A stretch of 64,000 nucleotides of DNA from Escherichia phage EscoHU1: the sequence record NC_133119.1; one strand, 5' to 3'. The notes beneath the pieces were generated by a model. The model was not told the origin of the DNA. It saw only the letters and a list, made by a program, of their open reading frames with translations, and made no database searches. Position numbers and translations under genes: made by a program. Shown piece after piece: positions 27,551 to 44,228 of this stretch. How positions within the stretch are numbered: position 1 is the stretch's first letter; the number at the start of each line of letters is the position of its first letter.

Positions 27551-27922
27551 TAGATCTCCCTGATGTTAGAATTTGGCTCAGCTTTTTGTTAACCCAGAAG
27601 CAAGATAAAAACTGGAAGGCAGGCTTGCTTATTATCTAATCACTAGCTACTGTTGGGGTGCTAGCATTCCGGTGAGATTGATGGTCTCGATTAGATAAAT
27701 AAGCACTGGAACTTTGATTTTAACGTTGCGATCTTCCAGGTCTGTTGCAACTACGTGATTGCTCACGCTAAGACAATGGCTATCTAAAGCCCTAGCTTCT
27801 ACATTTATACTCCTGGATAGCATGGAGTTGCAGTCTACTTCCTGCTGTCACGCCCGGCCATTTATAGAATGTGGACTCTCTTCTCAGCAGGATCTGGTAC
27901 AATGACCTGATCCTCTGTTTAG

Positions 27923-27995
27923 TAGTTAGTAGTGGATTTGAACCACTGTAGTCACTCCGTATGAAGGAGGTGCATAACCACTCTGCCAACTAACT
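27923..27995 (-). tRNA. tRNA, anticodon CAU (Met or Ile2); CCA not encoded
   Basis: Manual fold: acceptor AGTTAGT/ACTAACT, T-loop TTCAAAT, loop TTCATAC. Confidence 0.65.
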
Positions 27996-28001
27996 ATAAT
28001 T

Positions 28002-28077
28002 TGGTACTCCGACTTGGGATCGAACCAAGATTTGACGATTATCGGTCGCCTGTTCTAACCGTTTGAACTATCGGAGC
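28002..28077 (-). tRNA. tRNA-Ile (GAU), tentative
   Basis: Acceptor GCTCCGA/TCGGAGT, CCA encoded; loop CCGATAA (C33 unusual). Confidence 0.6.
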
Positions 28078-28078
28078 A

Positions 28079-28372
28079 TTACATCATTTCGTCTAAGTAA
28101 GAGGTATACTGGTATTTAGCTTCTCCAGTTTTATCTACTTCGACTTCTGTTCTAGGTACTTTTCGTACCAGACCATGAATCATCTTATAGTTAATAGACT
28201 TAGATGGTTCGTGATCTTTTGGAAATACTTGTTTAACCGTTACTACTTTGAAGCCTTCACGAGGTGTTAGCACAACAACTTGATCACCCTCTTTGATTTT
28301 CCAAGACTCAGGAAATTCGTAAGTGTAGCGTTGACCACCCGTTTGGAATACGACAGAAAGATAACGTTTCAT
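28079..28372 (-). CDS. hypothetical protein
   Basis: 97 aa ORF downstream of promoter. Confidence 0.45.
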   Translation of the reverse strand: MKRYLSVVFQTGGQRYTYEFPESWKIKEGDQVVVLTPREGFKVVTVKQVFPKDHEPSKSINYKMIHGLVRKVPRTEVEVDKTGEAKYQYTSYLDEMM

Positions 28373-28402
28373 TTGGTTTCCCTCTCATTAATTTATATAA
28401 AT

Positions 28403-28431
28403 ATTATAACAAGAAATAAGAGAGAAGGCAA
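28403..28431 (-). promoter_or_regulatory. early sigma70 promoter (-35 TTGCCT, -10 TATAAT)
   Basis: 17-bp spacer. Confidence 0.6.
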
Positions 28432-28446
28432 ATGAATTTTTAAATT

Positions 28447-28521
28447 TGGTGCTCCCACCAGGAATCGAACCCGGTTCAGATGCTTACAAGGCAACTGCAT
28501 CGCCAGCAATGCTTTAGGAGC
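28447..28521 (-). tRNA. tRNA-Thr (UGU)
   Basis: Full cloverleaf, loop CTTGTAA, CCA encoded. Confidence 0.7.
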
Positions 28522-28688
28522 AATAAACCCGTTATTTCAACGGAATTTCTTTTTCAAATACAGGAGACTTATCAGACATTACTGTCATAGCCAACTGTTG
28601 TAAGAATTCGAAGGAGAGTTTTAAACGTTCTTCACCCAACTCAACCTCAACGCACTTCATTTGTTTATCTACCTTTAGCTTTAGATTA

Positions 28689-28910
28689 TCAGCCATCTTC
28701 GGGTTCTCTTTGCTCAGCTATTGCTAGCCAGTCTGGTAAAAGAAACTTAGTACGAAATTCCTCATATGTTTCTTCTGGATGAAAACTATAGCCTTGCTTT
28801 TCATCATTTAATAAAACCGAACCATCTTCTTGCTCATAAGCTCGATATGTTTCACCAATAATTAAAACTCGTCTATTAGGGTTTTTATTACGAAACTCAA
28901 AAACGTGCAT
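28689..28910 (-). CDS. hypothetical protein
   Basis: 73 aa ORF. Confidence 0.4.
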   Translation of the reverse strand: MHVFEFRNKNPNRRVLIIGETYRAYEQEDGSVLLNDEKQGYSFHPEETYEEFRTKFLLPDWLAIAEQREPEDG

Positions 28911-28926
28911 AACGTTTCCTTATATT

Positions 28927-29001
28927 TGGTGCGGGATACGAGAGTCGAACTCGTGTCTACTGGTTGGAAGCCAGTTATTCTAGCCACTGAACTAATCACG
29001 C
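28927..29001 (-). tRNA. tRNA-Gly (UCC)
   Basis: Loop CTTCCAA, T-loop TTCGACT, CCA encoded. Confidence 0.75.
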
Positions 29002-29007
29002 ATAAAT

Positions 29008-29083
29008 TGGCTGGAGAAGGAGGAATCGAACCTACCATTAACGGAGTCAAAGGCCGTTGTGCTAACCGTTACACTACTCTCCA
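29008..29083 (-). tRNA. tRNA-Gln (UUG)
   Basis: U1:A72, G73, loop CTTTGAC. Confidence 0.7.
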
Positions 29084-29089
29084 AGTATT

Positions 29090-29165
29090 TGGCTGGGATG
29101 CCACGGATCGAACGTGGGACCTTCGGAGTCAGAGGCCGACGATCTGCCAATTGATCTACATCCCA
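29090..29165 (-). tRNA. tRNA-Gln (CUG)
   Basis: U1:A72, G73, loop CTCTGAC. Confidence 0.7.
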
Positions 29166-29172
29166 ATAATTT

Positions 29173-29373
29173 TTATTCTACAGGAACCGTGGCAATTGGA
29201 TCTGGTTCTTCTAGACGTTTACCATTATGATCAACACGAATAATACCACAACCTTCACAGATTACAACAGCACCATAGCCTTCTTTAACTTCAGCTTCTG
29301 TAATCAGACCAGAAAGATCACCAGTATCTTTGCCCCACATATCGATAGAGCATTCTTTGCAGAAATCAGCCAT
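29173..29373 (-). CDS. small Cys-containing protein
   Basis: 66 aa ORF. Confidence 0.4.
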   Translation of the reverse strand: MADFCKECSIDMWGKDTGDLSGLITEAEVKEGYGAVVICEGCGIIRVDHNGKRLEEPDPIATVPVE

Positions 29374-29397
29374 ATTTTAGTTCCTATATAAGTTAAT

Positions 29398-29472
29398 TGG
29401 TGCATCCTCAGGGAATCGAACCCCGATCGTAAAGTTCGTAGCTTTACATTCTTTCCATTGAAATAAGGACGC
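29398..29472 (-). tRNA. tRNA-Arg (ACG)
   Basis: Anticodon stem TAAAG/CTTTA, loop CTACGAA. Confidence 0.75.
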
Positions 29473-29478
29473 AATATT

Positions 29479-29555
29479 TGGGGTGGCTAGTGGAATTCGA
29501 ATCCACATAGGCCTGATTCACAATCAGGATCATTAACCAATTATGATATAGCCAC
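29479..29555 (-). tRNA. tRNA-His (GUG)
   Basis: GTGGCTATA...TAGCCACCCCA closely matches E. coli tRNA-His ends; loop TTGTGAA. Confidence 0.85.
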
Positions 29556-29588
29556 AATTGAAAACTCGCAGGGTTAGCGAAACCATCC

Positions 29589-29768
29589 TCAAATAGCATT
29601 TTCTAGAATACTAATCAAGTTATCTTCTATTGCACGAAGCTCAAGACGAGTACGAATTTTCAATTGTGGCGGCTCTCCGAAACTCATCACACTAACAACT
29701 AGTTGATTACACCTGTATTCTCGCCCAGGAAATTCTCTAGAAAGGTGCACCGTTACTCTTTGAGCCAT
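29589..29768 (-). CDS. possible small protein (59 aa, below ORF-track cutoff)
   Basis: ATG..TGA frame found by hand; weak RBS. Confidence 0.25.
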   Translation of the reverse strand: MAQRVTVHLSREFPGREYRCNQLVVSVMSFGEPPQLKIRTRLELRAIEDNLISILENAI

Positions 29769-29774
29769 TGAATA

Positions 29775-29905
29775 TCAAGAAGCAGAAGGACTTGAACCTT
29801 CACGAGATAGACCATTTATCTCAGCCTCGTTTTCGGGTATCTTATGAGGAGTGGATGTTCCCCTTACGCCCTTTAGGAAGCCCCGTCTACCGATTCCGGC
29901 ATACT
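29775..29905 (-). other. tRNA-like element (class-II-type D-arm and T-arm but no closable acceptor stem); pseudogene or stable RNA
   Basis: GCCGGAATCGGTAGACGG and GAAGGTTCAAGTCCTTC arms about 85 nt apart. Confidence 0.3.
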
Positions 29906-29913
29906 TCAAGATT

Positions 29914-30003
29914 TGGCAGAAGATAATGGAGTCGAACCATCACCATATCACTACAGCGGGCCGGTTTTCAAGACCGGTTACGTACCACTACGTCCTATCT
30001 TCT
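29914..30003 (-). tRNA. tRNA-Ser (UGA)
   Basis: 90 nt with long variable arm; ACCGGTCTTGAAAACCGG as in E. coli tRNA-Ser; G73. Confidence 0.8.
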
Positions 30004-30358
30004 ATTGTTCGTATATTACAAAGTTTACAGATTCAGAGTAATAACCATTACTAGAACCATGCCATTTAACGGTTACACAGCCTTTAGCTGTGGCAAACTT
30101 ATACCATGTATGGGTTACTGAATCCCAATCTTCTGTAGCGTGTGTGATTACTTCCTCTGCTTCTATGATTGGATAACCTAAAAGGTCATGTAAATCACCA
30201 ATAATATCATCTATATGAACATCTTCACAGCAGTCCTGCTCATGATAAAACTTATAGTTCTTACCATCAGTACAAATGAAGATAAGAGTATCTTGGTCTT
30301 GGCATACACTAGTAAAAATTTTGCCAAGCATTTCATTATAGATTGTCACTTCTGACAT
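30002..30358 (-). CDS. hypothetical acidic protein
   Basis: 118 aa ORF. Confidence 0.45.
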   Translation of the reverse strand: MSEVTIYNEMLGKIFTSVCQDQDTLIFICTDGKNYKFYHEQDCCEDVHIDDIIGDLHDLLGYPIIEAEEVITHATEDWDSVTHTWYKFATAKGCVTVKWHGSSNGYYSESVNFVIYEQ

Positions 30359-30380
30359 ATTAGTTTCCTAGTAAGTTGTT

Positions 30381-30470
30381 TGGCGGAAGAAGAGAGATTC
30401 GAACTCTCAAGCCGTTTTACCAGTCAGCCACTTTCCAAGCGGTTTTCGTCACCTATCGATTTGCTCTTCC
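30381..30470 (-). tRNA. tRNA-Ser (GGA), tentative
   Basis: 90 nt, T-arm GAGAGTTCGAATCTCTC, G73, CCA; loop TTGGAAA; D-arm atypical. Confidence 0.55.
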
Positions 30471-30644
30471 GTAGATCTCAGGATTAAATCATAAACTTCA
30501 TTAGCGGATACTGGAAGTATGAGATTATACATCTTTTGGTCATACCTCTGACCATACTCTATAAACACATACTCTTTAGTTAATGTATTAACAGCTAACC
30601 AGATATCAGTTATAGGAGTTTTCATCATGAGTTAATCCAATGTT

Positions 30645-30725
30645 TGGTAGGGATGGAGGGACTCGAACCCACACCCGAAGACTAGAACCTAAATCTAGCG
30701 CGTCTGCCAATTTCGCCACATCCCC
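30645..30725 (-). tRNA. tRNA-Leu (UAG)
   Basis: Leu-type D-arm GCGAAATTGGCAGACGC; stem CTAGA/TCTAG, loop TTTAGGT. Confidence 0.7.
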
Positions 30726-30732
30726 ATTTTAT

Positions 30733-30951
30733 TTAGTTAGAAATAAATAGTAACCCTGCAACAATGGAACCTATGCCACTGAATACCATTATCAGCATAG
30801 CTTCTAAGCTGATAAAGCGGACGTTATATGGAGCGCCCCAAGAATAATCAGTAAAGAAAGTTTTCTTTTCTTTAGCTAAATCTTTAATAGTTCTAAAATA
30901 GATAGCTAGTGCTAAAGCTGCAAGAACTACAGAGGCTGCTAAGAATACCAT
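30733..30951 (-). CDS. small membrane protein
   Basis: 72 aa, two TM segments. Confidence 0.4.
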   Translation of the reverse strand: MVFLAASVVLAALALAIYFRTIKDLAKEKKTFFTDYSWGAPYNVRFISLEAMLIMVFSGIGSIVAGLLFISN

Positions 30952-30969
30952 ATTATTTCCTTAATTTGT

Positions 30970-31045
30970 TTGGTGGAGTCACTCAGAATTGAACTGAGTT
31001 CCACTGCTTGCAAGGCAGTAAGTTTAACCAAATAACCTATGACCC
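30970..31045 (-). tRNA. tRNA-Ala (UGC)
   Basis: G3:U70 pair, loop CTTGCAA, 3' end GACTCCACCA. Confidence 0.8.
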
Positions 31046-31050
31046 CGAAT

Positions 31051-31129
31051 TTGGTGGAGAATAAGAGATTCGAACTCTTCTGATATCCTCGGTGCAAGCG
31101 AGGTGTCCACTCCAAGCAGACCCATTCCC
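31051..31129 (-). tRNA. second tRNA with anticodon UGC (Ala-like, enlarged D-loop)
   Basis: 79 nt; G3:U70; loop CTTGCAC. Confidence 0.55.
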
Positions 31130-31392
31130 CAAAATCTTTAAGTTTACTAAGGCTATTAGCTCGGTGTGCGTATTACCCTCAGACATTAGCCAGTAGAGGA
31201 TAACCGCTCTTCACAAACCCGATACACTATTCAGTTGCCGCTGAATCTAGTGGACTAATCTAGAACTTATTGCAAAGTATCCCCCGCCATTAGGGGTCTA
31301 ATTGCAATTGTGCTTTTTGGCAGCCAGTCCTAGGTCGAGCTAATACCTTAGTGAACTTTGATGAGGATTTCTCCTCATCAATTTATATAAAT

Positions 31393-31421
31393 ATTATAAC
31401 AAGAAATTAAGCATCAAGCAA
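31393..31421 (-). promoter_or_regulatory. early sigma70 promoter (-35 TTGCTT, -10 TATAAT)
   Basis: 17-bp spacer. Confidence 0.7.
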
Positions 31422-31773
31422 GTACATTTTTAGCGATTTCTTGTAGTTCCTTAACGTCGCTAACGAAAAGGTAATCAGAGCTTCCAGAGTGCATACTCTG
31501 CATAACCACACCATCCTCTGGTGCATCTTCCTTCAAAGTAAGTCCTAACCAGAACTTGGCAAAACTAGGTGTTACCTCACCTTGACTTGCCTTGAACACA
31601 TCGCCTTCTGTGATCTCTTGACCAGTAGAGAGTCCCATGTACGGTACGTTCAGATCAATATCTTTGTAGAATTCAGCTAGATCTTGTTCGAAGTCCCAAC
31701 CTTTAGAGATAGCGAACTCCATTGTTACATGACCGAAATAGCCTTGAACCTTGCTTGATAATTGCATTTGCAA
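31414..31773 (-). CDS. hypothetical protein
   Basis: 119 aa ORF. Confidence 0.45.
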   Translation of the reverse strand: MQMQLSSKVQGYFGHVTMEFAISKGWDFEQDLAEFYKDIDLNVPYMGLSTGQEITEGDVFKASQGEVTPSFAKFWLGLTLKEDAPEDGVVMQSMHSGSSDYLFVSDVKELQEIAKNVLA

Positions 31774-31792
31774 TTCCTTATTTTGAGTTAAT

Positions 31793-31866
31793 TGGTACTC
31801 GGTGATAGAATCGAACTATCGCAACCGCCGTGTAAAGACGGGGTTCTCCCATTAAACTAACCGAGC
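31793..31866 (-). tRNA. tRNA-Val (UAC)
   Basis: Stem CCGTC/GGCGG, loop TTTACAC, CCA encoded. Confidence 0.7.
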
Positions 31867-31999
31867 AAAAGACGTCCTATAATATAGGCTTCAACTACAA
31901 ATTCACAGAAACCTGCTAAAAACATACCTATTGTAAAATCGGCAGAGAATACATAGGAATCTTTTATTTTCTGCTTCATTAAGTAAAACCAGATAGTCA

Positions 32000-32317
32000 T
32001 TAAAATCTCTCCATTCTAAAGCCAATGAAGTAAGGTGCATTACATGGAACATGCTTAAGATCTTTAAGAGTAATTTTACGTCCTAAGCGTCGTTCCATAC
32101 AAGTGAAACATAGAACAATATCTTTGGGCTGCTCTTTTCTTATCTGATCCCATACCCAATCTTCAACCATACACATTTCATGGTATTGTTCACAGTCTCG
32201 ACAATAATGACACTGATGTTCTGGTACTTTTTGATTTTTAATACACAGTTCAGTAAAGCGTTTTCCTGCTCTGCCAGACATTTCTGATATTGTTTCTAGA
32301 ACTTTGTTAATATTCAT
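32000..32317 (-). CDS. Cys-rich zinc-finger-like protein
   Basis: 105 aa; CHYCRDC and CFTC motifs. Confidence 0.45.
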   Translation of the reverse strand: MNINKVLETISEMSGRAGKRFTELCIKNQKVPEHQCHYCRDCEQYHEMCMVEDWVWDQIRKEQPKDIVLCFTCMERRLGRKITLKDLKHVPCNAPYFIGFRMERF

Positions 32318-32334
32318 AACAAATTCCTTTAAAT

Positions 32335-32412
32335 TGGTTGACCGTCTGGGATTCGAACCCAGAACCTACGAGGTAAAAGCTCGGTACTCTTATCCAGTTG
32401 AGTTAACGGTCA
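32335..32412 (-). tRNA. tRNA-Lys (UUU)
   Basis: Loop CTTTTAC; T-arm CTGGGTTCGAATCCCAG. Confidence 0.7.
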
Positions 32413-32600
32413 ATTTAATACATGTATACTTCTTTAATAGAGTAGACTTTCAAGTAAGGATGATTAATACCAAATTCCGCCATCACTTCGTTTTCATCTT
32501 TACCGTAGTGCGCTAGTGGATACTTCTTACGATCTTTGCTAGAACGTAAATCACTTACCTTTAAACGAAATAATTTCATTTCGAAATCCTTCTATTAAAT

Positions 32601-32678
32601 TGGAAGCGGGTGCAGGAATCGAACCTACCTCTTTCTAGCTTATGAGACTAGCGATCTCTACCAGAGATCTAACCCGCA
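32601..32678 (-). tRNA. tRNA, anticodon CAU (Met/fMet/Ile2), 1:72 mismatch
   Basis: Loop CTCATAA; acceptor position 1 unpaired. Confidence 0.6.
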
Positions 32679-32684
32679 ATTATT

Positions 32685-32761
32685 TGGTCTCCAATGAAGG
32701 ACTCGAACCTTCAACCCCACCGCCCCAAACGGTGTACTCTAGCCAATTGAGCTAATCGGAG
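32685..32761 (-). tRNA. tRNA-Pro (UGG)
   Basis: C1:G72, stem CACCG/CGGTG, loop TTTGGGG. Confidence 0.8.
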
Positions 32762-32793
32762 AATATTCTTTGTTAACTCACTTTATAAAATAT

Positions 32794-32822
32794 ATTATAC
32801 AGACATTTAAGTATAATAGCAA
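32794..32822 (-). promoter_or_regulatory. early sigma70 promoter (-35 TTGCTA, -10 TATAAT) preceding tRNA-Pro
   Basis: 17-bp spacer. Confidence 0.7.
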
Positions 32823-32978
32823 ATGAGTTTTTAATAAATTTACTTATTGCGTAGGCCACCTGGAGGGTTCAAGCCCCACGGCTGACAAAGAAGTTTGCGA
32901 GACTTCTCTTAAATGCCAGAATAGACCCGCCGATCTATCGGAACCTACTCGATAAGTAAACTTTCATTTACTTACTTA

Positions 32979-33365
32979 TTATGTGCTGTGTATTTCTCGA
33001 TGACAATTCGCACACACTAAAATACATTTCTGTAATTCTTCTCTCAGCTTATCCCTGGAAATACCAGAGGATCTGAATTGACTAATATTATAGTCTTTTG
33101 AGTTTTCATCAATATGATGAAAATCCAGAGCTTGTTTGCATTTATTATACCCACAAATAGAACATTCTAATATAGGGAAGTATTCTGCAATAATAGAATC
33201 AACAGTTTCACGTCTTTTTGCATTTTCGCTAATCTTACATGTTGGCTTCCACTTTTGTTTACCCGAGGGATATATTCCATTAGTATAGAAATATTCCTTG
33301 GTTAGTGGGTGTTCCACACCACAGTTTTTACAAAACTTGTATTCCATAGCTCCTCGAACAGTCAA
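32979..33365 (-). CDS. HNH homing endonuclease
   Basis: 128 aa; DFHHIDENSKDYN...CANCHREIH. Confidence 0.7.
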   Translation of the reverse strand: MTVRGAMEYKFCKNCGVEHPLTKEYFYTNGIYPSGKQKWKPTCKISENAKRRETVDSIIAEYFPILECSICGYNKCKQALDFHHIDENSKDYNISQFRSSGISRDKLREELQKCILVCANCHREIHST

Positions 33366-33483
33366 TCTAGGCAGGACTTGAACCTGCTATCACTTGTGCG
33401 GATTTACGAGAACCATTCTTTCACTCGAATCGAACGAGCTTCTACCCTCGGCAAGCTGGTGCCCCCTCTCCACCACGCTAGAA
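33366..33483 (-). other. tRNA-like element with two T-arm-like hairpins, no canonical cloverleaf
   Basis: GCAGGTTCAAGTCCTGC and GCTCGTTCGATTCGAGT on minus strand. Confidence 0.25.
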
Positions 33484-33491
33484 TGTTTATT

Positions 33492-33567
33492 TGGTACACC
33501 CACTAGGACTTGAACCTAGAACCCTCCGCTTAAGAGGCGGTAGCTCTAACCATTGAGCTATGGATGT
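33492..33567 (-). tRNA. tRNA-Lys (CUU), tentative
   Basis: D-stem GCTC/GAGC, loop CTCTTAA, A73. Confidence 0.55.
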
Positions 33568-33678
33568 ATATTAGTCCATTGTACATCTACAAAAGAAACC
33601 CCATTTACCGCAGTGTGGACACTGTCCTCCAGAGTTTCTAGCAAAGGATTTGAACTTCATTCAACACTCCTTTAAAGT

Positions 33679-33755
33679 TGGCGCGACCGATGGGATTCGA
33701 ACCCACATTCTCTCCCGTGACAGGGGAGTACCATTACCAAGCCAGCCCCGATCGC
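33679..33755 (-). tRNA. tRNA-Asp (GUC)
   Basis: Stem CTCCC/GGGAG, loop CTGTCAC, G73. Confidence 0.8.
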
Positions 33756-33764
33756 ATAATTTGT

Positions 33765-33950
33765 TTACTCAGCTTTGAGTTTTTCGATAGCTTCCTTAAC
33801 CTCTTTTAGAGCTTCACGACGTGCATTCTGTTGCTGCATATCTTGTATTAACGTCAGTTTTTGGTTTTCAATTTCTTGATCCCAGACCTTAATATTATTA
33901 ATTAGATTATCACGATCAGCTTCTAGTCGAGCAATTGCACGAGTTGTCAT
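33765..33950 (-). CDS. small coiled-coil protein
   Basis: 61 aa ORF. Confidence 0.4.
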   Translation of the reverse strand: MTTRAIARLEADRDNLINNIKVWDQEIENQKLTLIQDMQQQNARREALKEVKEAIEKLKAE

Positions 33951-33977
33951 ATCTATTTCCTCAGTTGTTAATGAAAT

Positions 33978-34060
33978 TGGCGGGCCGTGTAGGATTCGAA
34001 CCTACGTTGTCTTTCGACATGGATTAACAGTCCACCGCCAAACCGCTTGGCTAACGACCC
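33978..34060 (-). tRNA. tRNA-Asn (GUU) with 13-nt variable arm
   Basis: Anticodon arm TGGACTGTTAATCCA as E. coli tRNA-Asn; G73; 83 nt. Confidence 0.65.
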
Positions 34061-34067
34061 TAAAATT

Positions 34068-34143
34068 TGGACGACCGCATGAGATTCGAACTCACATAAG
34101 GAGGTTTTGCAGGCCTCCGCCTAAGCCATTCAGCCAACGGTCG
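34068..34143 (-). tRNA. tRNA-Cys (GCA)
   Basis: Loop CTGCAAA, U73, 3' end GTCGTCCA. Confidence 0.7.
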
Positions 34144-34321
34144 ATTTATCTTGTTTTTCGAGATCAACGAACTCTAAATCGTTGAAGTCTCCTAGAGTAC
34201 GGGAGTAATAACCGTCTCCAGCATCATAGCCTGATTTACCACACTTACACATCTTAAACTCACGTAGACGTGTAAAGATATGTTCAGAGCCACAACACTT
34301 AAATTTAACTAACTTTTTCAT
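34130..34321 (-). CDS. small zinc-ribbon-like protein
   Basis: 63 aa; CxGS...CKC; 3' end overlaps tRNA-Cys by about 14 nt. Confidence 0.35.
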   Translation of the reverse strand: MKKLVKFKCCGSEHIFTRLREFKMCKCGKSGYDAGDGYYSRTLGDFNDLEFVDLEKQDKSTVG

Positions 34322-34560
34322 CCAACACGCTCCGGTAAATCTTCGAGTTTATATTGAGTAGCCACATTAGCAGCATCTAGTAACAAACCCATATGTTTAA
34401 GAATTCTAGTGATAGCCTCGCCTTCTGCTTCTTCTACAAAGCAACGTAGTTGCATGAAGTCAATACCACCATCCATACCAGAGAAAATGTTAAGTAAGCG
34501 AAGCATTACCAGCTTACGTTCTTTTAATTCTTGTTCTGTCATGTTGCTTCTCCAGTTCAA
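34318..34560 (-). CDS. hypothetical protein
   Basis: 80 aa ORF. Confidence 0.4.
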   Translation of the reverse strand: MNWRSNMTEQELKERKLVMLRLLNIFSGMDGGIDFMQLRCFVEEAEGEAITRILKHMGLLLDAANVATQYKLEDLPERVG

Positions 34561-34571
34561 TTTATGTAATA

Positions 34572-34600
34572 ATTATACAGAACTTTAAGCGGTTAAGCAA
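34572..34600 (-). promoter_or_regulatory. early sigma70 promoter (-35 TTGCTT, -10 TATAAT)
   Basis: 17-bp spacer. Confidence 0.7.
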
Positions 34601-34880
34601 CTACATTTTTCAGAAATATGATGCCTTTCTTTTTCTTCTTATATTTCCATGTTAATGGATTCTGTCGATTATGAACGCTTGAGATCTTTGTCTCGTCAAA
34701 GTTCTTCAGTACCATGTAATCACAGGCCAACTGTTCCAGTGGGATGTGATCTCCGTCAAAAGCATAAACATAAGGCTGTTGACTGGCACGATAATGATAT
34801 ACTTTGTTAATTCTGCGTTTCAGTGACTTATCCGCACAGTAAATAAAGAAGTTTTCAGGATGCATCAGCATCTCCTTCAA
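34593..34880 (-). CDS. hypothetical protein
   Basis: 95 aa ORF. Confidence 0.4.
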   Translation of the reverse strand: MKEMLMHPENFFIYCADKSLKRRINKVYHYRASQQPYVYAFDGDHIPLEQLACDYMVLKNFDETKISSVHNRQNPLTWKYKKKKKGIIFLKNVVA

Positions 34881-34882
34881 AT

Positions 34883-34957
34883 TGGTGCACCCCGTTGGTA
34901 ACGATCCAACCTCTCAAGCTCTTCAGGCAAGCGCTAATCCATCTCAGCTAAAGGTGC
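34883..34957 (-). tRNA. tRNA-Phe-like (GAA), two U-U mismatches in anticodon stem, non-canonical T-loop
   Basis: Acceptor GCACCTT/GGGGTGC + ACCA; loop CTGAAGA; T-loop ATCGTTA. Confidence 0.5.
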
Positions 34958-34963
34958 AAATAT

Positions 34964-35043
34964 TGGCAAACCTACTAGGACTCGAACCTAGACCGTACGG
35001 TTTTGGAGACCGACATGCTGTCCAGTAACACTCTAGGGATGCA
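34964..35043 (-). tRNA. tRNA-Trp-like (CCA), 5' acceptor strand does not pair
   Basis: TCGGTCTCCAAAACCGT arm, T-arm, G73-CCA like E. coli tRNA-Trp; 5' half aberrant. Confidence 0.4.
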
Positions 35044-35048
35044 GAAAT

Positions 35049-35125
35049 TGGCGTCCTGTGCGGGGATCGAACCCGCAAATCCTACCTTGAAAGGGTAGTG
35101 ACTTTACCAGTTTGTCTAACAGGAC
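35049..35125 (-). tRNA. tRNA-Glu (UUC)
   Basis: GTCCTGT...ACAGGACGCCA ends, loop CTTTCAA. Confidence 0.8.
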
Positions 35126-35132
35126 TTAAATT

Positions 35133-35223
35133 TGGTGTTGGATGATGGAGTCGAACCACCCGAGACCCTTCCGAGTCGGCAGATTTACAGTCTGCTTCGC
35201 TACCTCTACGATACTAATCCAAC
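35133..35223 (-). tRNA. tRNA-Tyr (GUA)
   Basis: 91 nt; anticodon arm GCAGACTGTAAATCTGC identical to E. coli tRNA-Tyr. Confidence 0.85.
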
Positions 35224-35348
35224 ATATTTGAATGAAAAGTAAGTCGGTTAAACTCAAGGTGGAATATTTCAGGAAATCCTGACTTTACCCCTAAAAGCAA
35301 CTCGCTTAGTTACTTCTCATTCAGATATGTTTTCCAAATTAGATAACT

Positions 35349-35377
35349 ATTATACCAAGTTTTGAAGGACTGAGCAA
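35349..35377 (-). promoter_or_regulatory. early sigma70 promoter (-35 TTGCTC, -10 TATAAT) preceding tRNA-Tyr
   Basis: 17-bp spacer. Confidence 0.6.
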
Positions 35378-35413
35378 GTCAAATTTTAAAGAACTTGCTC
35401 AGTGCTATATCAG

Positions 35414-35689
35414 TTACTCGAAGCTAGGAGTGACACTCAGTTTGAATGGAAGCTCGAACACTTCTTCATAATCATCATTGAGCGTAATTACACGACCTTC
35501 TAGCTTAGTCATGGTGATTTCGATATCAGCCCTTGCATCAGGAGCCATACCAGCTTCCACACATTTAGCTTTGACTTCCGGCAGAAGTTCTACATCGTAG
35601 AAATAAAGCCATTCAATCTCACCCTCCCAGCCACCCCAGGATTTACAAACAGCACTTTCAACACCAGTTGCAGTAACACGTTTTGACAT
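35414..35689 (-). CDS. hypothetical acidic protein
   Basis: 91 aa ORF. Confidence 0.45.
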   Translation of the reverse strand: MSKRVTATGVESAVCKSWGGWEGEIEWLYFYDVELLPEVKAKCVEAGMAPDARADIEITMTKLEGRVITLNDDYEEVFELPFKLSVTPSFE

Positions 35690-35719
35690 TCGTTAACCCC
35701 TTCATCAATTTATATAACT

Positions 35720-35749
35720 ATTATATCAGAAATCTTAAGTAAAAAGCAA
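35720..35749 (-). promoter_or_regulatory. early sigma70 promoter (-35 TTGCTT, 18 bp, -10 TATAAT)
   Basis: Hexamers read on minus strand. Confidence 0.65.
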
Positions 35750-35779
35750 GTACATTTTTAAAATTTCTGCTTGGAGGAG

Positions 35780-36052
35780 TTAAACTCCTGATTCTTCAGC
35801 CAGATCAAGCCCAACCAACGTGATTGCCATAATAGCTGCGCCATGTTCTTTCTCTCCTAGCTCTTTGGCTTGAGTGAGAATATTGAGGAATTGCTTTTGA
35901 AAATCTGCAACTTCTTCTGTCATGCCTGCTTCAGCAATAATTCCTTTCAGCATAAAGCGTTGTGCTGTAATTTCAGGATTAGCCATTTGTTTTCTCCAGT
36001 TATTTAGAATGTAAGCCAAACTTAGGATCATAGCGATCGTAAGTCGTACCAT
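35780..36052 (-). CDS. hypothetical protein
   Basis: 90 aa ORF. Confidence 0.45.
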   Translation of the reverse strand: MVRLTIAMILSLAYILNNWRKQMANPEITAQRFMLKGIIAEAGMTEEVADFQKQFLNILTQAKELGEKEHGAAIMAITLVGLDLAEESGV

Positions 36053-36137
36053 TAGTTGAAGCCTTGATGCTATGAAAACGACAGTACATAAATTTACGTA
36101 GTGCTTTCTTAATAGCTTTCATTTTATTTCCTTAATT

Positions 36138-36214
36138 TGGTAGGGGTGGTGGGATTCGAACCCACAAAACCCGAATTTTAAGTCCGGTACCTATGCCAAT
36201 TCGATTACACCCCC
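36138..36214 (-). tRNA. tRNA with anticodon UAA (Leu by anticodon) in class-I frame
   Basis: 77 nt; stem CCGGA/TTCGG, loop CTTAAAA, 5-nt variable loop. Confidence 0.6.
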
Positions 36215-36223
36215 ATGTAATCT

Positions 36224-36571
36224 TTAGAGTTCGTAACCCTGAATATATCGAGCAAAACCAGTAATCTCGAACTGAATTGCCCATGCTACTTCCATATGCT
36301 CAATCTTACTAAAATGAGCGTCAGACTGTTCTAGGAAATAACGAGAGATTATAGGGAACTCAATGTCAAAATCTTCCTTATCCATACCATAGAAGAAGTT
36401 TCCAGAAATATTACGAACTTCACGAAAGAAATCCTCAATCTGAAAATCCATCAGAGGATAAGTATATTCCTCTTTGCTATCATCCGTTTGGAAGAAGCGG
36501 AAATGCACAAGGCAAGAGCCAATCAGATTTACTGCTGGAGTAGTGTAAATATCCATGTTAACCTCGATCAA
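36224..36571 (-). CDS. hypothetical acidic protein
   Basis: 115 aa ORF. Confidence 0.45.
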   Translation of the reverse strand: MIEVNMDIYTTPAVNLIGSCLVHFRFFQTDDSKEEYTYPLMDFQIEDFFREVRNISGNFFYGMDKEDFDIEFPIISRYFLEQSDAHFSKIEHMEVAWAIQFEITGFARYIQGYEL

Positions 36572-36743
36572 TATCTAGAGAAATTCCAAATTCTGGATTA
36601 ATACCAGAACCATTACATGCTGCACATTCCCACTCTTCAAAACGCATATCGCCAGGTTCAGCATCATTAATAGTACCTGTTCCATGGCAGTGAGCACACA
36701 TGCACTCTTCTAGTTCTTGTTTAAGCTCTTGAAACTTAGACAT
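36558..36743 (-). CDS. small Cys-rich protein
   Basis: 61 aa; CAHCHGTG...CAACNGSG. Confidence 0.4.
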   Translation of the reverse strand: MSKFQELKQELEECMCAHCHGTGTINDAEPGDMRFEEWECAACNGSGINPEFGISLDIDRG

Positions 36744-36760
36744 ATAGTCTCCTAGTTAAT

Positions 36761-36838
36761 TGGTGGCTCCCGGAGGATTCGAACCTACCTACCTTTCGCT
36801 TATGAGGCGACGGCTCATACCAAATGAGCTTGAGAACC
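36761..36838 (-). tRNA. tRNA, anticodon CAU (third CAU species)
   Basis: Acceptor GGTTCTC/GGGAGCC, loop CTCATAA, CCA encoded. Confidence 0.65.
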
Positions 36839-36843
36839 AAATT

Positions 36844-36915
36844 TGGAGGAAGATGCCAGACTCGAACTGGCACACCGTGTCTCCACAGCTACTGGCTGTT
36901 TAGCAAACAGCTCCC
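36844..36915 (-). other. tRNA-like element (T-arm, acceptor, CCA) with truncated anticodon region
   Basis: GCCAGTTCGAGTCTGGC + ATCTTCC-T-CCA; only about 16 nt between D-arm and T-arm. Confidence 0.3.
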
Positions 36916-36951
36916 TTACCTTTAGGGTTAATCTTCCAAATTTATGAATAT

Positions 36952-36980
36952 ATTATATTAGAAATTTAGCTTCATGGCAA
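36952..36980 (-). promoter_or_regulatory. early sigma70 promoter (-35 TTGCCA, -10 TATAAT)
   Basis: 17-bp spacer; overlaps stop of upstream gene. Confidence 0.6.
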
Positions 36981-43265: not shown

Positions 43266-43340
43266 TGGCCGAGGTGACAGGATTCGAACCTGCATAAAGG
43301 AATTTAGAAGACTCCTGCCTATCCCTTAGACTACACCCCG
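43266..43340 (-). tRNA. tRNA-Arg (UCU)
   Basis: Loop CTTCTAA, T-arm GCAGGTTCGAATCCTGT, G73-CCA. Confidence 0.75.
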
Positions 43341-44199: not shown

Positions 44200-44228
44200 T
44201 ATTATACAGAATTTTGAAGCGTTTAGCA
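44200..44228 (-). promoter_or_regulatory. early sigma70 promoter (-35 TTGCTA, -10 TATAAT) reading into the ORF-free island
   Basis: 17-bp spacer. Confidence 0.7.

What the first reader, a model, noticed from the sequence alone, without database searches (positions are those of the whole stretch)
27923..36838. Full decoding set with three CAU tRNAs and several isoacceptor pairs
I count 28 tRNA genes including three with anticodon CAU (27923, 32601, 36761; candidates for elongator Met, initiator and lysidine-Ile), two Gln, two UGC (Ala-like), two Lys, two Ser, two Arg and two Leu-reading species. One Leu-reading tRNA (UAA, 36138) is in a class-I frame. Which CAU species is which cannot be decided by eye.
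Basis: seen in the sequence. Interest (0 to 1): 0.35.

Follow-up and report, generated by a model that had tools for sequence, protein, structure and literature searches.

The report
T5-like phage tRNA gene cluster
This is the well-known tRNA-rich region of a T5-like Salmonella/E. coli phage: 29 tRNA genes that top up or replace host tRNAs during infection, so it is real but ordinary and already described.

Summary
Corrections:
- Only 26 lie in 27923-36838. Ser-GCU (36844-36937) and Arg-UCU (43266-43340) lie outside.
- There are three Ser genes, not two.
- Phe exists only as a low-scoring 29th gene (34883-34957), which ARAGORN rejects.

The window is a T5-like phage (Demerecviridae, Epseptimavirus; about 96-97% identical to Salmonella phages Stitch and Seabear). 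Its gene order matches the phage T5 tRNA region.

The three CAU genes can be assigned by orthology to the curated T5 record and by identity elements:
- 27922-27995 is elongator Met.
- 32601-32678 is the initiator-type tRNA, 78/78 identical to T5 tRNAfM.
- 36761-36838 is Ile2.

"Full decoding set" is true only per amino acid. GGU/GGC (66% of phage Gly codons) and CGG have no phage reader under E. coli wobble rules. The Gly-GCC gene of the nearest relatives is replaced here by an HNH endonuclease ORF.

Published T5 work shows the region is dispensable in the laboratory and that single tRNAs (Lys, Thr, Asn, Tyr) defeat tRNA-cleaving defences.

Novelty: already known. Interest is low.

Side result: the about 0.85 kb non-coding stretch upstream of Arg-UCU, homologous to T5 "RNAX", shows clear covariation.

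The parts
43266..43340 (-). tRNA-Arg (UCU), 75 nt
   Evidence: ARAGORN; Rfam 49.3 bits; 1 nt different from T5 tRNAR
36844..36937 (-). tRNA-Ser (GCU), 94 nt, class II, discriminator U73
   Evidence: (47.1 bits); Stitch record flags it as pseudo
36761..36838 (-). tRNA-Ile2 type (CAU, presumed lysidine), 78 nt
   Evidence: 40 bits; orthologue of T5 tRNAI2; C29:G41, U12:A23, A73, A37, A38 present
36138..36214 (-). tRNA-Leu (UAA), 77 nt, class-I frame (5-nt variable loop)
   Evidence: (57.4 bits); A73, A15, U48, G18G19, A20a present; at least 95% identical in 321 phage records
35133..35223 (-). tRNA-Tyr (GUA), 91 nt, class II
   Evidence: 32.6 bits; identical to TrudiGerster and S131 alleles
35049..35125 (-). 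tRNA-Glu (UUC), 77 nt
   Evidence: 61.1 bits
34964..35040 (-). tRNA-Trp (CCA), 77 nt, two acceptor-stem mismatches
   Evidence: (35.2 bits); Stitch record flags it as pseudo
34883..34957 (-). tRNA-Phe (GAA), 75 nt, low-scoring: two U.U mismatches in the anticodon stem, T-loop AUCGUUA
   Evidence: Rfam 33.4 bits; not found by ARAGORN; orthologue of T5 tRNAF
34068..34143 (-). tRNA-Cys (GCA), 76 nt
   Evidence: 40.7 bits
33978..34060 (-). tRNA-Asn (GUU), 83 nt, 13-nt variable arm
   Evidence: (59 bits)
33679..33755 (-). tRNA-Asp (GUC), 77 nt
   Evidence: 46.8 bits
33492..33567 (-). tRNA-Lys (CUU), 76 nt
   Evidence: 64.8 bits
32685..32761 (-). tRNA-Pro (UGG), 77 nt
   Evidence: 55.4 bits
32601..32678 (-). 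initiator-type tRNA-fMet (CAU), 78 nt
   Evidence: 43.6 bits; 78/78 identical to T5 tRNAfM; U1.U72 mismatch, G2:C71, C3:G70, G4:C69, A11:U24
32335..32412 (-). tRNA-Lys (UUU), 78 nt, rare allele with loop CUUUUAC
   Evidence: (60.6 bits); at least 99% identical in 15 records, otherwise 80% or less
31793..31866 (-). tRNA-Val (UAC), 74 nt
   Evidence: 57.8 bits
31052..31130 (-). tRNA-Ala (UGC), 79 nt, G3:U70
   Evidence: Rfam 38.1 bits with laxer filters
30971..31046 (-). tRNA-Ala (UGC), 76 nt, G3:U70
   Evidence: (59.6 bits)
30645..30725 (-). tRNA-Leu (UAG), 81 nt, shortened 9-nt variable arm
   Evidence: (53.5 bits)
30381..30470 (-). tRNA-Ser (GGA), 90 nt, atypical D arm
   Evidence: ARAGORN; below Rfam tRNA threshold, tRNA-Sec 25.2 bits; orthologue of T5 tRNAS2
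29914..30003 (-). tRNA-Ser (UGA), 90 nt
   Evidence: 32.1 bits
29479..29555 (-). tRNA-His (GUG), 77 nt, C73 but T at position -1
   Evidence: (59.9 bits)
29398..29472 (-). tRNA-Arg (ACG), 75 nt
   Evidence: 55 bits
29090..29165 (-). tRNA-Gln (CUG), 76 nt
   Evidence: 56.4 bits
29008..29083 (-). tRNA-Gln (UUG), 76 nt
   Evidence: 50 bits
28927..29001 (-). tRNA-Gly (UCC), 75 nt
   Evidence: 65.5 bits
28447..28521 (-). tRNA-Thr (UGU), 75 nt
   Evidence: 47.4 bits; anticodon arm identical to T5 tRNAT
28002..28077 (-). tRNA-Ile (GAU), 76 nt, C33 in the loop CCGAUAA
   Evidence: (58.9 bits)
27922..27995 (-). elongator tRNA-Met (CAU), 74 nt, no encoded CCA
   Evidence: 52.5 bits; 1 nt different from T5 tRNAM; U4:A69, A5:U68, U29:A41 as in E. 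coli metT
28403..36980 (-). Seven T5-type early promoters (A-tract, TTGCTT-like -35, 16-18 nt spacer, TATAAT) at 36980, 35749, 35377, 34600, 32822, 31421 and 28431. They split the cluster into mixed tRNA and small-ORF transcription units.
   Evidence: pattern search; positions correspond to promoters annotated in T5
32979..33365 (-). HNH endonuclease ORF (128 aa) sitting where the nearest relatives carry tRNA-Gly (GCC)
   Evidence: (HNH 17 bits, below Pfam's cut-off)
29557..29910 (-). Homologues of T5 stable RNAs rnaIII (29557-29662) and tRNA-like rna1 (29767-29910)
   Evidence: blastn against T5 misc_RNA features; T5 annotation
31211..31345 (-). Homologue of T5 stable RNA rna2H
32848..33485 (-). 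Homologues of T5 rnaIV (32848-32948) and tRNA-like rna2 (33361-33485), flanking the HNH ORF
43346..44200 (-). Homologue of T5 'RNAX': about 855 nt non-coding leader from a T5-type promoter (44229-44201) to tRNA-Arg. It is structured and contains a tRNA-like element at 43874-43945.

Best explanation
The finding is the tRNA-rich region of a T5-like virulent phage (family Demerecviridae, genus Epseptimavirus), the same locus long known in phage T5. It holds 29 tRNA genes on one strand: 28 clear ones plus a weak Phe. They are interspersed with small ORFs, an HNH homing-type endonuclease gene and homologues of T5's stable RNAs. At least seven strong T5-type early promoters transcribe them as mixed tRNA/mRNA units, with an eighth for the outlying RNAX-Arg unit. 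Host enzymes (RNase P, CCA-adding enzyme, modification enzymes, aminoacyl-tRNA synthetases) then process and charge the tRNAs. The three CAU genes are an elongator Met (27922-27995), an initiator-type formylatable Met (32601-32678) and an Ile2 type (36761-36838). The Ile2 type would need host TilS to convert C34 to lysidine so that it reads AUA. The set covers all 20 amino acids plus initiation but not all codons. It most likely works in two non-exclusive ways. First, it raises the supply of readers for the A-ending codons that this AT-rich genome uses far more than its host. Second, it provides sequence-diverged substitutes for host tRNAs that tRNA-cleaving defence nucleases destroy, or outnumbers those tRNAs. 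Shown here: the genes, their anticodons, orthology to T5, identity elements, promoters, codon bias and structure-preserving evolution. Shown by others for T5: expression, formylation, dispensability, and rescue from PARIS and Retron-Eco7. Inferred: that the same functions apply to this phage's alleles, and that CAU3 is lysidinylated.
For: Identity of the locus. 625 phage records match. The best are Stitch and Seabear at 97% over 91% of the cluster and 96.2% over 90% of 19 kb. Both are Epseptimavirus. Gene order and anticodons match T5 and five other T5-like phages. CAU assignment. C29:G41, an IleRS identity pair (my own knowledge), is kept in all four divergent alleles of the Ile2-type gene while the other anticodon-stem pairs change compensatorily. 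The fMet-type gene has an unpaired 1:72 together with G2:C71, C3:G70, G4:C69 and A11:U24. These are the formyltransferase determinants listed in PMC9976931. [quoted passage not shown] Functional constraint: among close alleles, 39 of 41 stem pairs changed on both sides keep pairing. Anticodon loops change at 0.005 per site against 0.055-0.067 in stems. Promoters. Codon bias: the ten NNA codons read by phage U34 or L34 tRNAs are all enriched 1.35-5.9 fold in 81 phage ORFs compared with 41 E. coli genes (AGA 5.9, CUA 4.4, GGA 3.1, AUA 2.6). Anti-defence role: T5 tRNA-Lys(UUU), Thr(UGU) and Asn(GUU) neutralise PARIS AriB, which cuts at U36AAUC|A41 (PMC11464382; PMC12409363). The window Lys-UUU reads UACCUC there and the window Thr-UGU reads UAAGCA, as in T5. 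T5-family tRNA-Tyr rescues phages from Retron-Eco7 (PMC11555353).
Against: No expression, charging or modification data exist for this phage. Several genes look impaired: Trp has two acceptor mismatches, Phe has two U.U mismatches in the anticodon stem, Ser-GGA fails the Rfam tRNA model, and His has no encoded G-1. T5 record notes say many anticodon-swapped versions do not act as suppressors. The codon test restricted to Watson-Crick cognate codons is not significant (p = 0.085). The NNA enrichment is confounded by the AT-richness of the genome. Anticodon stems are not more variable than other stems (0.067 against 0.055-0.064 per site), so this small sample shows no focused arms-race signal. 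The window Asn allele keeps the host-like UAAUC|C sequence at the AriB site. The Ile2-type gene has U4:A69 rather than C4:G69, so TilS recognition is uncertain. The fMet-type gene has only one of the three G:C pairs typical of bacterial initiators, and has U73.
Confidence: 0.88

Rival explanations
1. Pure codon-usage adaptation: the tRNAs exist only to speed translation of AT-rich phage genes whose preferred codons are rare in the host, with no role in countering immunity.
For: All ten NNA codons with a phage U34/L34 reader are enriched 1.35-5.9 fold over E. coli usage. The host-rare AGA, CUA, AUA and GGA are among the most enriched. This is the classical explanation cited in PMC4810235.
Against: The test on Watson-Crick cognate codons is weak (p = 0.085). 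Several phage tRNAs read codons the phage uses less than the host (AAA, CAG, GAC, AAC, UAC, AUC, AGC). Published T5 experiments show specific rescue from PARIS and Retron-Eco7 by single tRNAs. T5 tRNA deletion mutants grow on defence-free hosts.
Confidence: 0.3
2. Autonomous decoding set: the phage carries a complete translation-ready tRNA complement so that it no longer depends on host tRNAs.
For: 29 genes cover all 20 amino acids and include an initiator-type tRNA.
Against: Under E. coli wobble rules (my own knowledge) there is no reader for GGU/GGC, which are 66% of phage Gly codons, nor for CGG. The Gly-GCC gene of the closest relatives is absent. Phe and Trp genes are structurally weak. 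Gene content varies between 22 and 28 among seven related phages by ARAGORN. T5 variants lacking 16-17 tRNA genes are viable.
Confidence: 0.07
3. The 36761-36838 CAU gene is a third methionine tRNA (not lysidinylated) rather than tRNA-Ile2.
For: It has U4:A69, as in E. coli elongator tRNA-Met, instead of the C4:G69 used by E. coli TilS and IleRS. It has G27.A43 rather than G27.U43 (determinants from my own knowledge of Ikeuchi et al. 2005 and Nureki et al. 1994).
Against: The curated T5 record calls the orthologue tRNAI2. C5:G68, U12:A23, C29:G41, A37, A38 and A73 are Ile2-like, and C29:G41 is kept in four divergent alleles. AUA is 2.6-fold enriched in phage genes and has no other phage reader. 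A separate elongator Met gene already exists.
Confidence: 0.12
4. A sizeable subset of the genes (Trp, Phe, Ser-GGA, Ser-GCU, possibly His) are decaying pseudogenes or non-decoding tRNA-like RNAs that are carried along.
For: These genes have low Rfam scores (25-35 bits) and stem mismatches. Stitch and T5 records carry pseudo flags. T5 notes say anticodon swaps do not give suppressors. His has T at -1.
Against: The same odd features are conserved across phages. The Phe anticodon stem is identical in T5. The Phe T stem changed compensatorily and T54:A58 swapped to A54:U58. His is 77/77 identical in six of seven phages. T5 tRNA-Phe is a substrate of E. coli PheRS according to PMC9976931.
Confidence: 0.2

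Closest known systems
Phage T5 tRNA gene region (AY543070 coordinates about 28.0-41.6 kb; called the 'tRNA-rich region' of T5-like phages in PMC11555353)
   Same: Same strand, same gene order, same promoter type. The initiator-type tRNA and tRNA-His are identical. Met, Thr and Arg-UCU are near-identical. The same stable-RNA genes are present (rnaIII, rna1, rna2H, rnaIV, rna2, rnaX), along with interspersed small ORFs and HNH endonucleases.
   Different: The window has extra genes absent from the T5 record: Arg-ACG, Lys-CUU, Leu-UAA and a second Ala-UGC. It carries different alleles for Ile-GAU, Asn, Lys-UUU, Tyr, Ser-GCU, Leu-UAG and Trp. It lacks rnaI and rna3. Its HNH genes sit at other positions.
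Salmonella phages Stitch (KM236244) and Seabear (MK728824), Epseptimavirus
   Same: 96-97% nucleotide identity. 27 of the same tRNA genes are annotated or detected, in the same order.
   Different: They carry tRNA-Gly (GCC) where the window has an HNH ORF. Their Lys-UUU allele is only 78% identical to the window's. Leu-UAA differs by one compensatory pair.
Phage T4 tRNA cluster (eight tRNAs) and other large tRNA sets in virulent phages
   Same: These are phage-encoded tRNAs processed and charged by host enzymes, linked to codon bias and to escape from anticodon nucleases (PMC4810235; PMC11555353).
   Different: The T4 set is much smaller, has no initiator and is not a near-complete amino acid set (from PMC4810235 and my own knowledge).
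GOLLD and ROOL large structured RNAs of phages and prophages (comparison for the RNAX homologue only)
   Same: Large (0.7-1.3 kb), conserved, structured non-coding RNA in phage genomes, next to tRNA genes and with a tRNA-like module inside. The comparison itself comes from my own knowledge of Weinberg et al. 2009 and 2017.
   Different: No match to any Rfam 15 model other than tRNA, even at E up to 5-10, so it is not a member of those families by sequence/structure model.

Membership tests
T5-like (Demerecviridae) tRNA-rich region | Nucleotide homology and shared gene order with the T5 tRNA region | tested here: met
   same order of anticodons; 85% identity to T5 over 48% of the cluster; 97% to Epseptimavirus phages
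T5-like (Demerecviridae) tRNA-rich region | Transcription from T5-type early promoters on the same strand as the tRNAs | tested here: met
   seven sites within the cluster plus one before RNAX-Arg; 28 on the minus strand of the window against 2 on the plus strand; positions match promoters annotated in T5. Activity was not measured.
T5-like (Demerecviridae) tRNA-rich region | Presence of the T5 stable RNAs among the tRNA genes | tested here: met
   rnaIII, rna1, rna2H, rnaIV, rna2 and rnaX homologues at 78-96% identity; rnaI and rna3 not found
Bacterial initiator tRNA-fMet (gene 32601-32678) | Unpaired or weak 1:72 pair | tested here: met
   U1.U72; U.C in S131 and U:A in TrudiGerster
Bacterial initiator tRNA-fMet (gene 32601-32678) | Minor formyltransferase determinants G2:C71, C3:G70, G4:C69 and A73 (PMC9976931) | tested here: inconclusive
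   The three base pairs are present, but the discriminator is U73, not A73
Bacterial initiator tRNA-fMet (gene 32601-32678) | Purine11:pyrimidine24 (A11:U24) | tested here: met
   D stem GAUC/GAUC gives A11:U24
Bacterial initiator tRNA-fMet (gene 32601-32678) | Three consecutive G:C pairs 29-31:39-41 in the anticodon stem (my own knowledge) | tested here: not met
   A29:U41, G30:C40, U31.G39. The gene is therefore called 'initiator-type', on the strength of 78/78 identity to T5 tRNAfM.
Bacterial initiator tRNA-fMet (gene 32601-32678) | Formylation of the charged tRNA | not testable with these tools
   Only the title of Chen et al. 1975 (reference list of PMC4810235) and the name used in PMC11464382 are available
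tRNA-Ile2 (lysidine, CAU) (gene 36761-36838) | IleRS elements A73, U12:A23, C29:G41, A37, A38 (my own knowledge: Nureki et al. 1994) | tested here: met
   C29:G41 is kept in four divergent alleles
tRNA-Ile2 (lysidine, CAU) (gene 36761-36838) | TilS and IleRS acceptor pairs C4:G69 and C5:G68 (my own knowledge: Ikeuchi et al. 2005) | tested here: inconclusive
   U4:A69 (Met-like) but C5:G68 (Ile2-like)
tRNA-Ile2 (lysidine, CAU) (gene 36761-36838) | Lysidine at position 34 and charging with Ile | not testable with these tools
   Needs mass spectrometry or a charging assay
Elongator tRNA-Met (gene 27922-27995) | CAU anticodon, paired 1:72, A73, and acceptor and anticodon-stem pairs like the host elongator | tested here: met
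   A1:U72, A73, U4:A69, A5:U68 and U29:A41 as in E. coli metT; orthologue of T5 tRNAM
E. coli-type tRNA-Leu identity (gene 36138-36214) | A73, A15:U48, G18G19, A20a; long variable arm not required (PMC9976931) | tested here: met
   All are present in the sequence. The acceptor stem (G1.U72) and D loop resemble the phage Leu-UAG gene. Charging was not tested.
tRNA-Ala (genes 30971-31046 and 31052-31130) | G3:U70 with A73 | tested here: met
Bacterial tRNA-His (gene 29479-29555) | Encoded G-1 opposite C73 (PMC9976931) | tested here: not met
   C73 is present but position -1 is T in the window and in six relatives including T5. The anticodon GUG and the rest of the acceptor stem equal those of E. 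coli tRNA-His.
GOLLD / ROOL RNAs (for 43346-44200) | Match to the Rfam covariance models | tested here: not met
   No hit at E up to 5-10 in the window or in six homologous loci

The most novel reading that the evidence does not exclude
The island may be more than a decoding supplement. It contains structurally deviant but strictly conserved tRNAs: a class-I-frame Leu-UAA, an Asn with a 13-nt variable arm, a His without encoded G-1 and an Ile-GAU with C33. It also contains tRNA-like stable RNAs. One is the about 0.85 kb covarying RNAX homologue, which wraps a tRNA-like acceptor/T-arm module in a helix with five covarying pairs. Together these could be a coordinated counter-defence system of nuclease-resistant substitutes and RNA decoys for tRNA-targeting immunity. 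RNAX could be an undescribed family of large structured phage RNA, analogous to GOLLD and ROOL.
Probability: 0.15. Interest if true: 0.6.

Novelty: already known. Interest (0 to 1): 0.1.

Why it matters
For the finding itself, very little is new. It confirms that this window comes from a T5-like phage and that its tRNA repertoire is the standard, already annotated one. Practical value is limited to three points:
- The three CAU genes can now be labelled Met, fMet-type and Ile2-type instead of three 'tRNA-Met', which is how GenBank records of the close relatives label them.
- The weak Phe gene missed by ARAGORN should be annotated.
- This phage has lost Gly-GCC to a homing-type endonuclease gene and carries a rare Lys-UUU allele. 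That could matter for predicting sensitivity to tRNA-cleaving defences such as PARIS or PrrC.

The one item that might repay further work is outside the finding: the conserved, covarying RNAX RNA of unknown function.

Tried and rejected
- **ARAGORN with 90% thresholds and introns allowed.** It gave 41 calls, most of them implausible intron-containing models kilobases long. Only 29777-29908 and 43873-43946 coincide with T5's tRNA-like RNAs. It still did not find Phe.
- **Alternative register for the Phe gene.** ViennaRNA paired a 4-bp stem giving loop GCCUGAA, which would mean anticodon CUG and C33. I rejected this in favour of the Rfam alignment (anticodon GAA, U33) and the T5 annotation.
- **Test for an arms-race signature.** Per-site differences among close alleles are 0.067 in the anticodon stem, 0.055 in the acceptor stem and 0.064 in the T stem, so there is no excess.
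- **Codon test on Watson-Crick cognate codons.** Mann-Whitney p = 0.085, not significant.
- **Generic sigma-70 promoter scan.** It found 32 sites against 39.9 expected, so it was uninformative. A T5-specific pattern was needed.
- **Covariation for Leu-UAA.** Homologues are at least 95% identical in 321 records. Only one compensatory pair could be scored.
- **Rfam scans for any family covering the stable-RNA homologues or RNAX.** Only tRNA matched.
- **Viral-contig scan for more diverse RNAX copies.** It returned only isolate-type T5-like genomes.
- **Literature.** The 1975 PNAS paper on T5 Met/fMet tRNAs is not held. No paper on RNAX or the T5 stable RNAs was found.
- **Pfam on ten small ORFs in and next to the cluster.** Hits were DUF7448, a Toprim domain and a sub-threshold YqeY match. 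None explains the tRNAs.

Full report

ARAGORN finds 28 tRNA genes in the window, all on the minus strand.

Rfam's tRNA model independently scores 26 of them above its gathering score. With laxer filters it also scores the second Ala-UGC gene at 38.1 bits. Only Ser-GGA (30381-30470) stays below the tRNA model.

Four corrections are needed:
- Only 26 genes lie within 27923-36838. Ser-GCU is at 36844-36937 and Arg-UCU at 43266-43340.
- There are three Ser genes, not two.
- The 28 genes cover 19 amino acids. Phe comes only from a 29th gene at 34883-34957. Rfam scores it at 33.4 bits with anticodon GAA. ARAGORN rejects it even at lowered thresholds.
- Rfam's other extra hit, 43874-43945 (29.3 bits), has no alignable anticodon arm and no CCA. 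It is a tRNA-like module, not a tRNA.

A cloverleaf parse of every gene confirms two further points. Leu-UAA is 77 nt with a 5-nt variable loop, so it does have a class-I frame. Both UGC genes have G3:U70 with A73, the alanine identity pair.

**2. What is it?**

The 9.1 kb cluster matches 625 phage records. The best are Salmonella phages Stitch and Seabear at 97% identity over 91%, and 96.2% over 90% of a 19 kb stretch. Both are Demerecviridae, genus Epseptimavirus.

Phage T5 itself matches at 85% over 48%, with the same gene order. ARAGORN run on seven T5-like phages gives the same series of anticodons in the same order, with 22-28 genes per phage. The finding is therefore the tRNA-rich region of T5-like phages, a locus studied since the 1970s (references in PMC4810235). 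It has recently been extracted from 250 T5-like genomes (PMC11555353).

The T5-specific promoter pattern is an A-tract, a TTGCTT-like -35 box and TATAAT. It occurs 28 times on the minus strand of the window and twice on the plus strand. Seven sites lie inside the cluster and one lies before the Arg-UCU unit. These positions correspond to the promoters annotated in T5. The generic sigma-70 scan was uninformative.

Homologues of T5's annotated stable RNAs lie between the tRNA genes:

| T5 stable RNA | Window coordinates |
|---|---|
| rnaIII | 29557-29662 |
| rna1 (tRNA-like) | 29767-29910 |
| rna2H | 31211-31345 |
| rnaIV | 32848-32948 |
| rna2 (tRNA-like) | 33361-33485 |

**3. Which CAU gene is which?**

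The curated T5 record AY543070 names three CAU genes by position:
- tRNAM, at the promoter-distal end next to Ile-GAU.
- tRNAfM, next to Pro.
- tRNAI2, next to Ser-GCU.

The window genes at the same positions compare as follows. The first is 1 nt different from T5. The second is 78/78 identical. The third is identical in the acceptor, D and T arms but has a compensatorily replaced anticodon stem.

Identity elements agree with these names:
- **27922-27995 (elongator Met).** It has a paired A1:U72, A73, and U4:A69, A5:U68 and U29:A41, as in E. coli metT.
- **32601-32678 (initiator type).** It has an unpaired U1.U72, G2:C71, C3:G70, G4:C69 and A11:U24. These are the formyltransferase determinants listed in PMC9976931. 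It lacks two of the three G:C pairs of the initiator anticodon stem and has U73. I therefore call it initiator-type, relying on its identity to the T5 gene. Nature 2024 also calls that T5 gene tRNA-fMet, and a 1975 paper title reports a T5 formylmethionine tRNA (the paper itself is not held).
- **36761-36838 (Ile2 type).** It has A73, U12:A23, C29:G41, A37 and A38. C29:G41 is kept in all four divergent alleles seen in T5, chee24, TrudiGerster and the window, while the neighbouring pairs change. It has U4:A69 rather than C4:G69, so recognition by TilS is not certain. That it is simply a third Met tRNA remains a minor rival.

**4. Is it a full decoding set?**

Per amino acid, yes, if the weak Phe gene is counted. 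Per codon, no.

Under E. coli wobble rules (my own knowledge) Gly-UCC reads GGA and GGG, and ICG does not read CGG. In 81 long phage ORFs, GGU plus GGC make up 66% of Gly codons, and CGG is 1% of Arg codons.

The nearest relatives carry a Gly-GCC gene between the rna2 and rnaIV homologues. In the window that segment is replaced by a 128-aa HNH ORF. This ORF is at least 95% identical in only five records and has distant relatives in many unrelated phages, as expected for a mobile endonuclease gene.

T5 variants that lack 16-17 of the tRNA genes are viable. The set is therefore an accessory, not an autonomous decoding system.

**5. How does it most likely work?**

*Shown here.* The genes evolve like functional tRNAs. 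Among close alleles, 39 of 41 stem pairs changed on both sides keep pairing (allele pairs overlap, so these are not independent events). Anticodon loops change at 0.005 per site against 0.055-0.067 in stems.

The window's Leu-UAA differs from all five relatives by one compensatory pair, U28:A42 to C28:G42. The Phe T stem changed compensatorily compared with T5.

*Codon supply.* All ten NNA codons read by a phage U34 or lysidine tRNA are used 1.35-5.9 times more in phage ORFs than in 41 E. coli genes. The highest are AGA 5.9, CUA 4.4, GGA 3.1 and AUA 2.6. This is confounded by AT-richness, and the broader cognate-codon test is not significant (p = 0.085).

*Anti-defence.* For T5, tRNA-Lys(UUU), Thr(UGU) and Asn(GUU) are necessary and sufficient to neutralise the PARIS nuclease AriB. 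AriB cuts host tRNAs at U36AAUC|A41. T5-family tRNA-Tyr, driven by a strong promoter, rescues phages from Retron-Eco7.

In the window, Lys-UUU reads UACCUC at that site and Thr-UGU reads UAAGCA, as in T5. Asn keeps the host-like UAAUCC. Resistance of the window's alleles is inferred, not shown.

I looked for extra variability in anticodon stems as an arms-race signature and found none in this small sample.

**6. The class-I-frame Leu gene**

E. coli LeuRS needs A73, the A15:U48 pair, G18G19 and A20a, but neither the anticodon nor the long variable arm (PMC9976931). All of these elements are present in the 77-nt gene.

Its G1.U72 acceptor stem and its D loop resemble the phage's Leu-UAG gene. 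Leucine is the only plausible identity.

The gene is at least 95% identical in 321 phage records and is routinely annotated tRNA-Leu. In chee24 and S131 the Leu-UAG gene is also 77 nt, while it is 81 nt here and 85 nt in T5. Loss of the long arm is therefore a recurring feature of this phage family, not a peculiarity of this window.

**7. Comparison with what is known, and novelty**

The locus is a member of the T5-like tRNA-rich region on every tested criterion: homology, gene order, promoters and stable RNAs. Every gene has an annotated counterpart in deposited genomes.

The window's phage is not identical to any record. It is a mosaic: it carries the Lys-UUU allele of phages beppo and faergetype, the HNH ORF of MET_P1_137_112 and otherwise a Stitch-like backbone. 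That is ordinary variation. My verdict is that the finding is already known and of low interest.

**8. Side result outside the finding**

The 855 nt between the promoter at 44229-44201 and Arg-UCU have no long ORF. They are homologous to T5 'rnaX', which the T5 record annotates as a stable RNA of unknown function.

Homologues occur in 523 phage records, including Klebsiella Sugarlandvirus phages at 73-80% identity. Most are unannotated. Length from promoter to end motif ranges from 727 to 1282 nt.

I aligned ten representatives. RNAalifold predicts 89 pairs, and 25-26 of them show compensatory changes. Of all pair cells, 97% are paired, against 36-43% when partners are slid by 1-3 columns. None of 500 shuffles reaches the observed covariation. 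Two caveats apply: the structure was derived from the same alignment, and there are only about four effective lineages.

The best-supported helix (five covarying pairs) encloses the tRNA-like module at 43874-43945. A 17-bp AT-rich hairpin sits directly before tRNA-Arg.

The single-sequence fold has z = -2.3. No Rfam family other than tRNA matches, and I found no paper on it.

Noticed in passing
window 43346-44200 (minus strand): Homologue of T5 'RNAX' (a stable RNA of unknown function). It is an about 855 nt non-coding transcript leader before tRNA-Arg, conserved in 523 T5-like phage records. It has 25-26 covarying base pairs and an embedded tRNA-like acceptor/T-arm module (43874-43945). It matches no Rfam family other than tRNA, and no paper on it was found.
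   Followed up: partly
window 32979-33365 (minus strand): A 128-aa HNH endonuclease ORF (Pfam HNH 17 bits, below cut-off) occupies the place where Stitch, Seabear and TrudiGerster carry tRNA-Gly (GCC); T5 has neither. The ORF is at least 95% identical in only five phage records, with distant relatives in many unrelated phages.
   Followed up: partly
window 29479-29556 (minus strand): tRNA-His has C73 but a T at position -1 instead of the encoded G-1 that bacterial HisRS needs. The gene and the T at -1 are conserved in all seven T5-like phages compared, including T5. How it is charged is unexplained.
   Followed up: partly
window 28002-28077 (minus strand): tRNA-Ile (GAU) has C at the nearly universal U33 position (loop CCGAUAA) in the Epseptimavirus allele. 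The T5, chee24 and S131 allele has U33.
   Followed up: partly
window 27922-27995 (minus strand): The elongator tRNA-Met gene lacks an encoded CCA in the window, Seabear and Stitch (the sequence continues ...ACTAACTAC taaa). T5, chee24, TrudiGerster and S131 encode CCA. All other tRNA genes in the window encode CCA.
   Followed up: partly
window 33978-34060 (minus strand): tRNA-Asn (GUU) is 83 nt with a 13-nt variable arm (GUC-GAAA-GAC), an unusual class-II-like feature for Asn. It is shared with Seabear, Stitch and TrudiGerster. The T5 allele is 78 nt.
   Followed up: partly
window 29557-29662, 29767-29910, 31211-31345, 32848-32948, 33361-33485 (minus strand): These are homologues of T5 stable RNAs rnaIII, rna1 (tRNA-like), rna2H, rnaIV and rna2 (tRNA-like), at 78-96% identity. 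rnaI and rna3 have no match. The rnaIII homologue overlaps a 59-aa ORF (29589-29768) that the Seabear and Stitch records annotate as a protein.
   Followed up: partly
window 35224-35328 (minus strand): The leader between the promoter at 35377-35349 and tRNA-Tyr carries a long inverted repeat (atatctgaatgagaagtaa ... ttacttttcattcaaatat). Its 3' arm ends exactly at the 5' end of tRNA-Tyr. It may be a processing or stability element for the highly expressed Tyr tRNA.
   Followed up: no
window 32335-32412 (minus strand); L001, L007, L008, L010: tRNA-Lys (UUU) exists in at least four different alleles among seven T5-like phages, each with a different anticodon stem. The window's allele (loop CUUUUAC) is at least 99% identical in only 15 records (for example beppo and faergetype) and 80% or less in the rest.
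   Followed up: partly
L008 6168-6244 (chee24) and L010 4257-4330 (S131): In these Tequintavirus phages the Leu-UAG gene is also 77 nt with a short variable loop, against 81 nt in the window and 85 nt in T5. This suggests repeated shortening of the long arm in phage Leu tRNAs.
   Followed up: no
window 44238-44681 (minus strand): The 147-aa ORF immediately upstream of the RNAX promoter gives a weak YqeY-like match (25.4 bits, Pfam cut-off 27). RefSeq records of relatives call their copy 'tRNA amidotransferase'.
   Followed up: no
GenBank MG065642.1 (hit H19): A record named 'Campylobacter phage A148' is 96% identical to this Salmonella/E. coli T5-like tRNA region over 85% of its length. The host label looks doubtful.
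   Followed up: no
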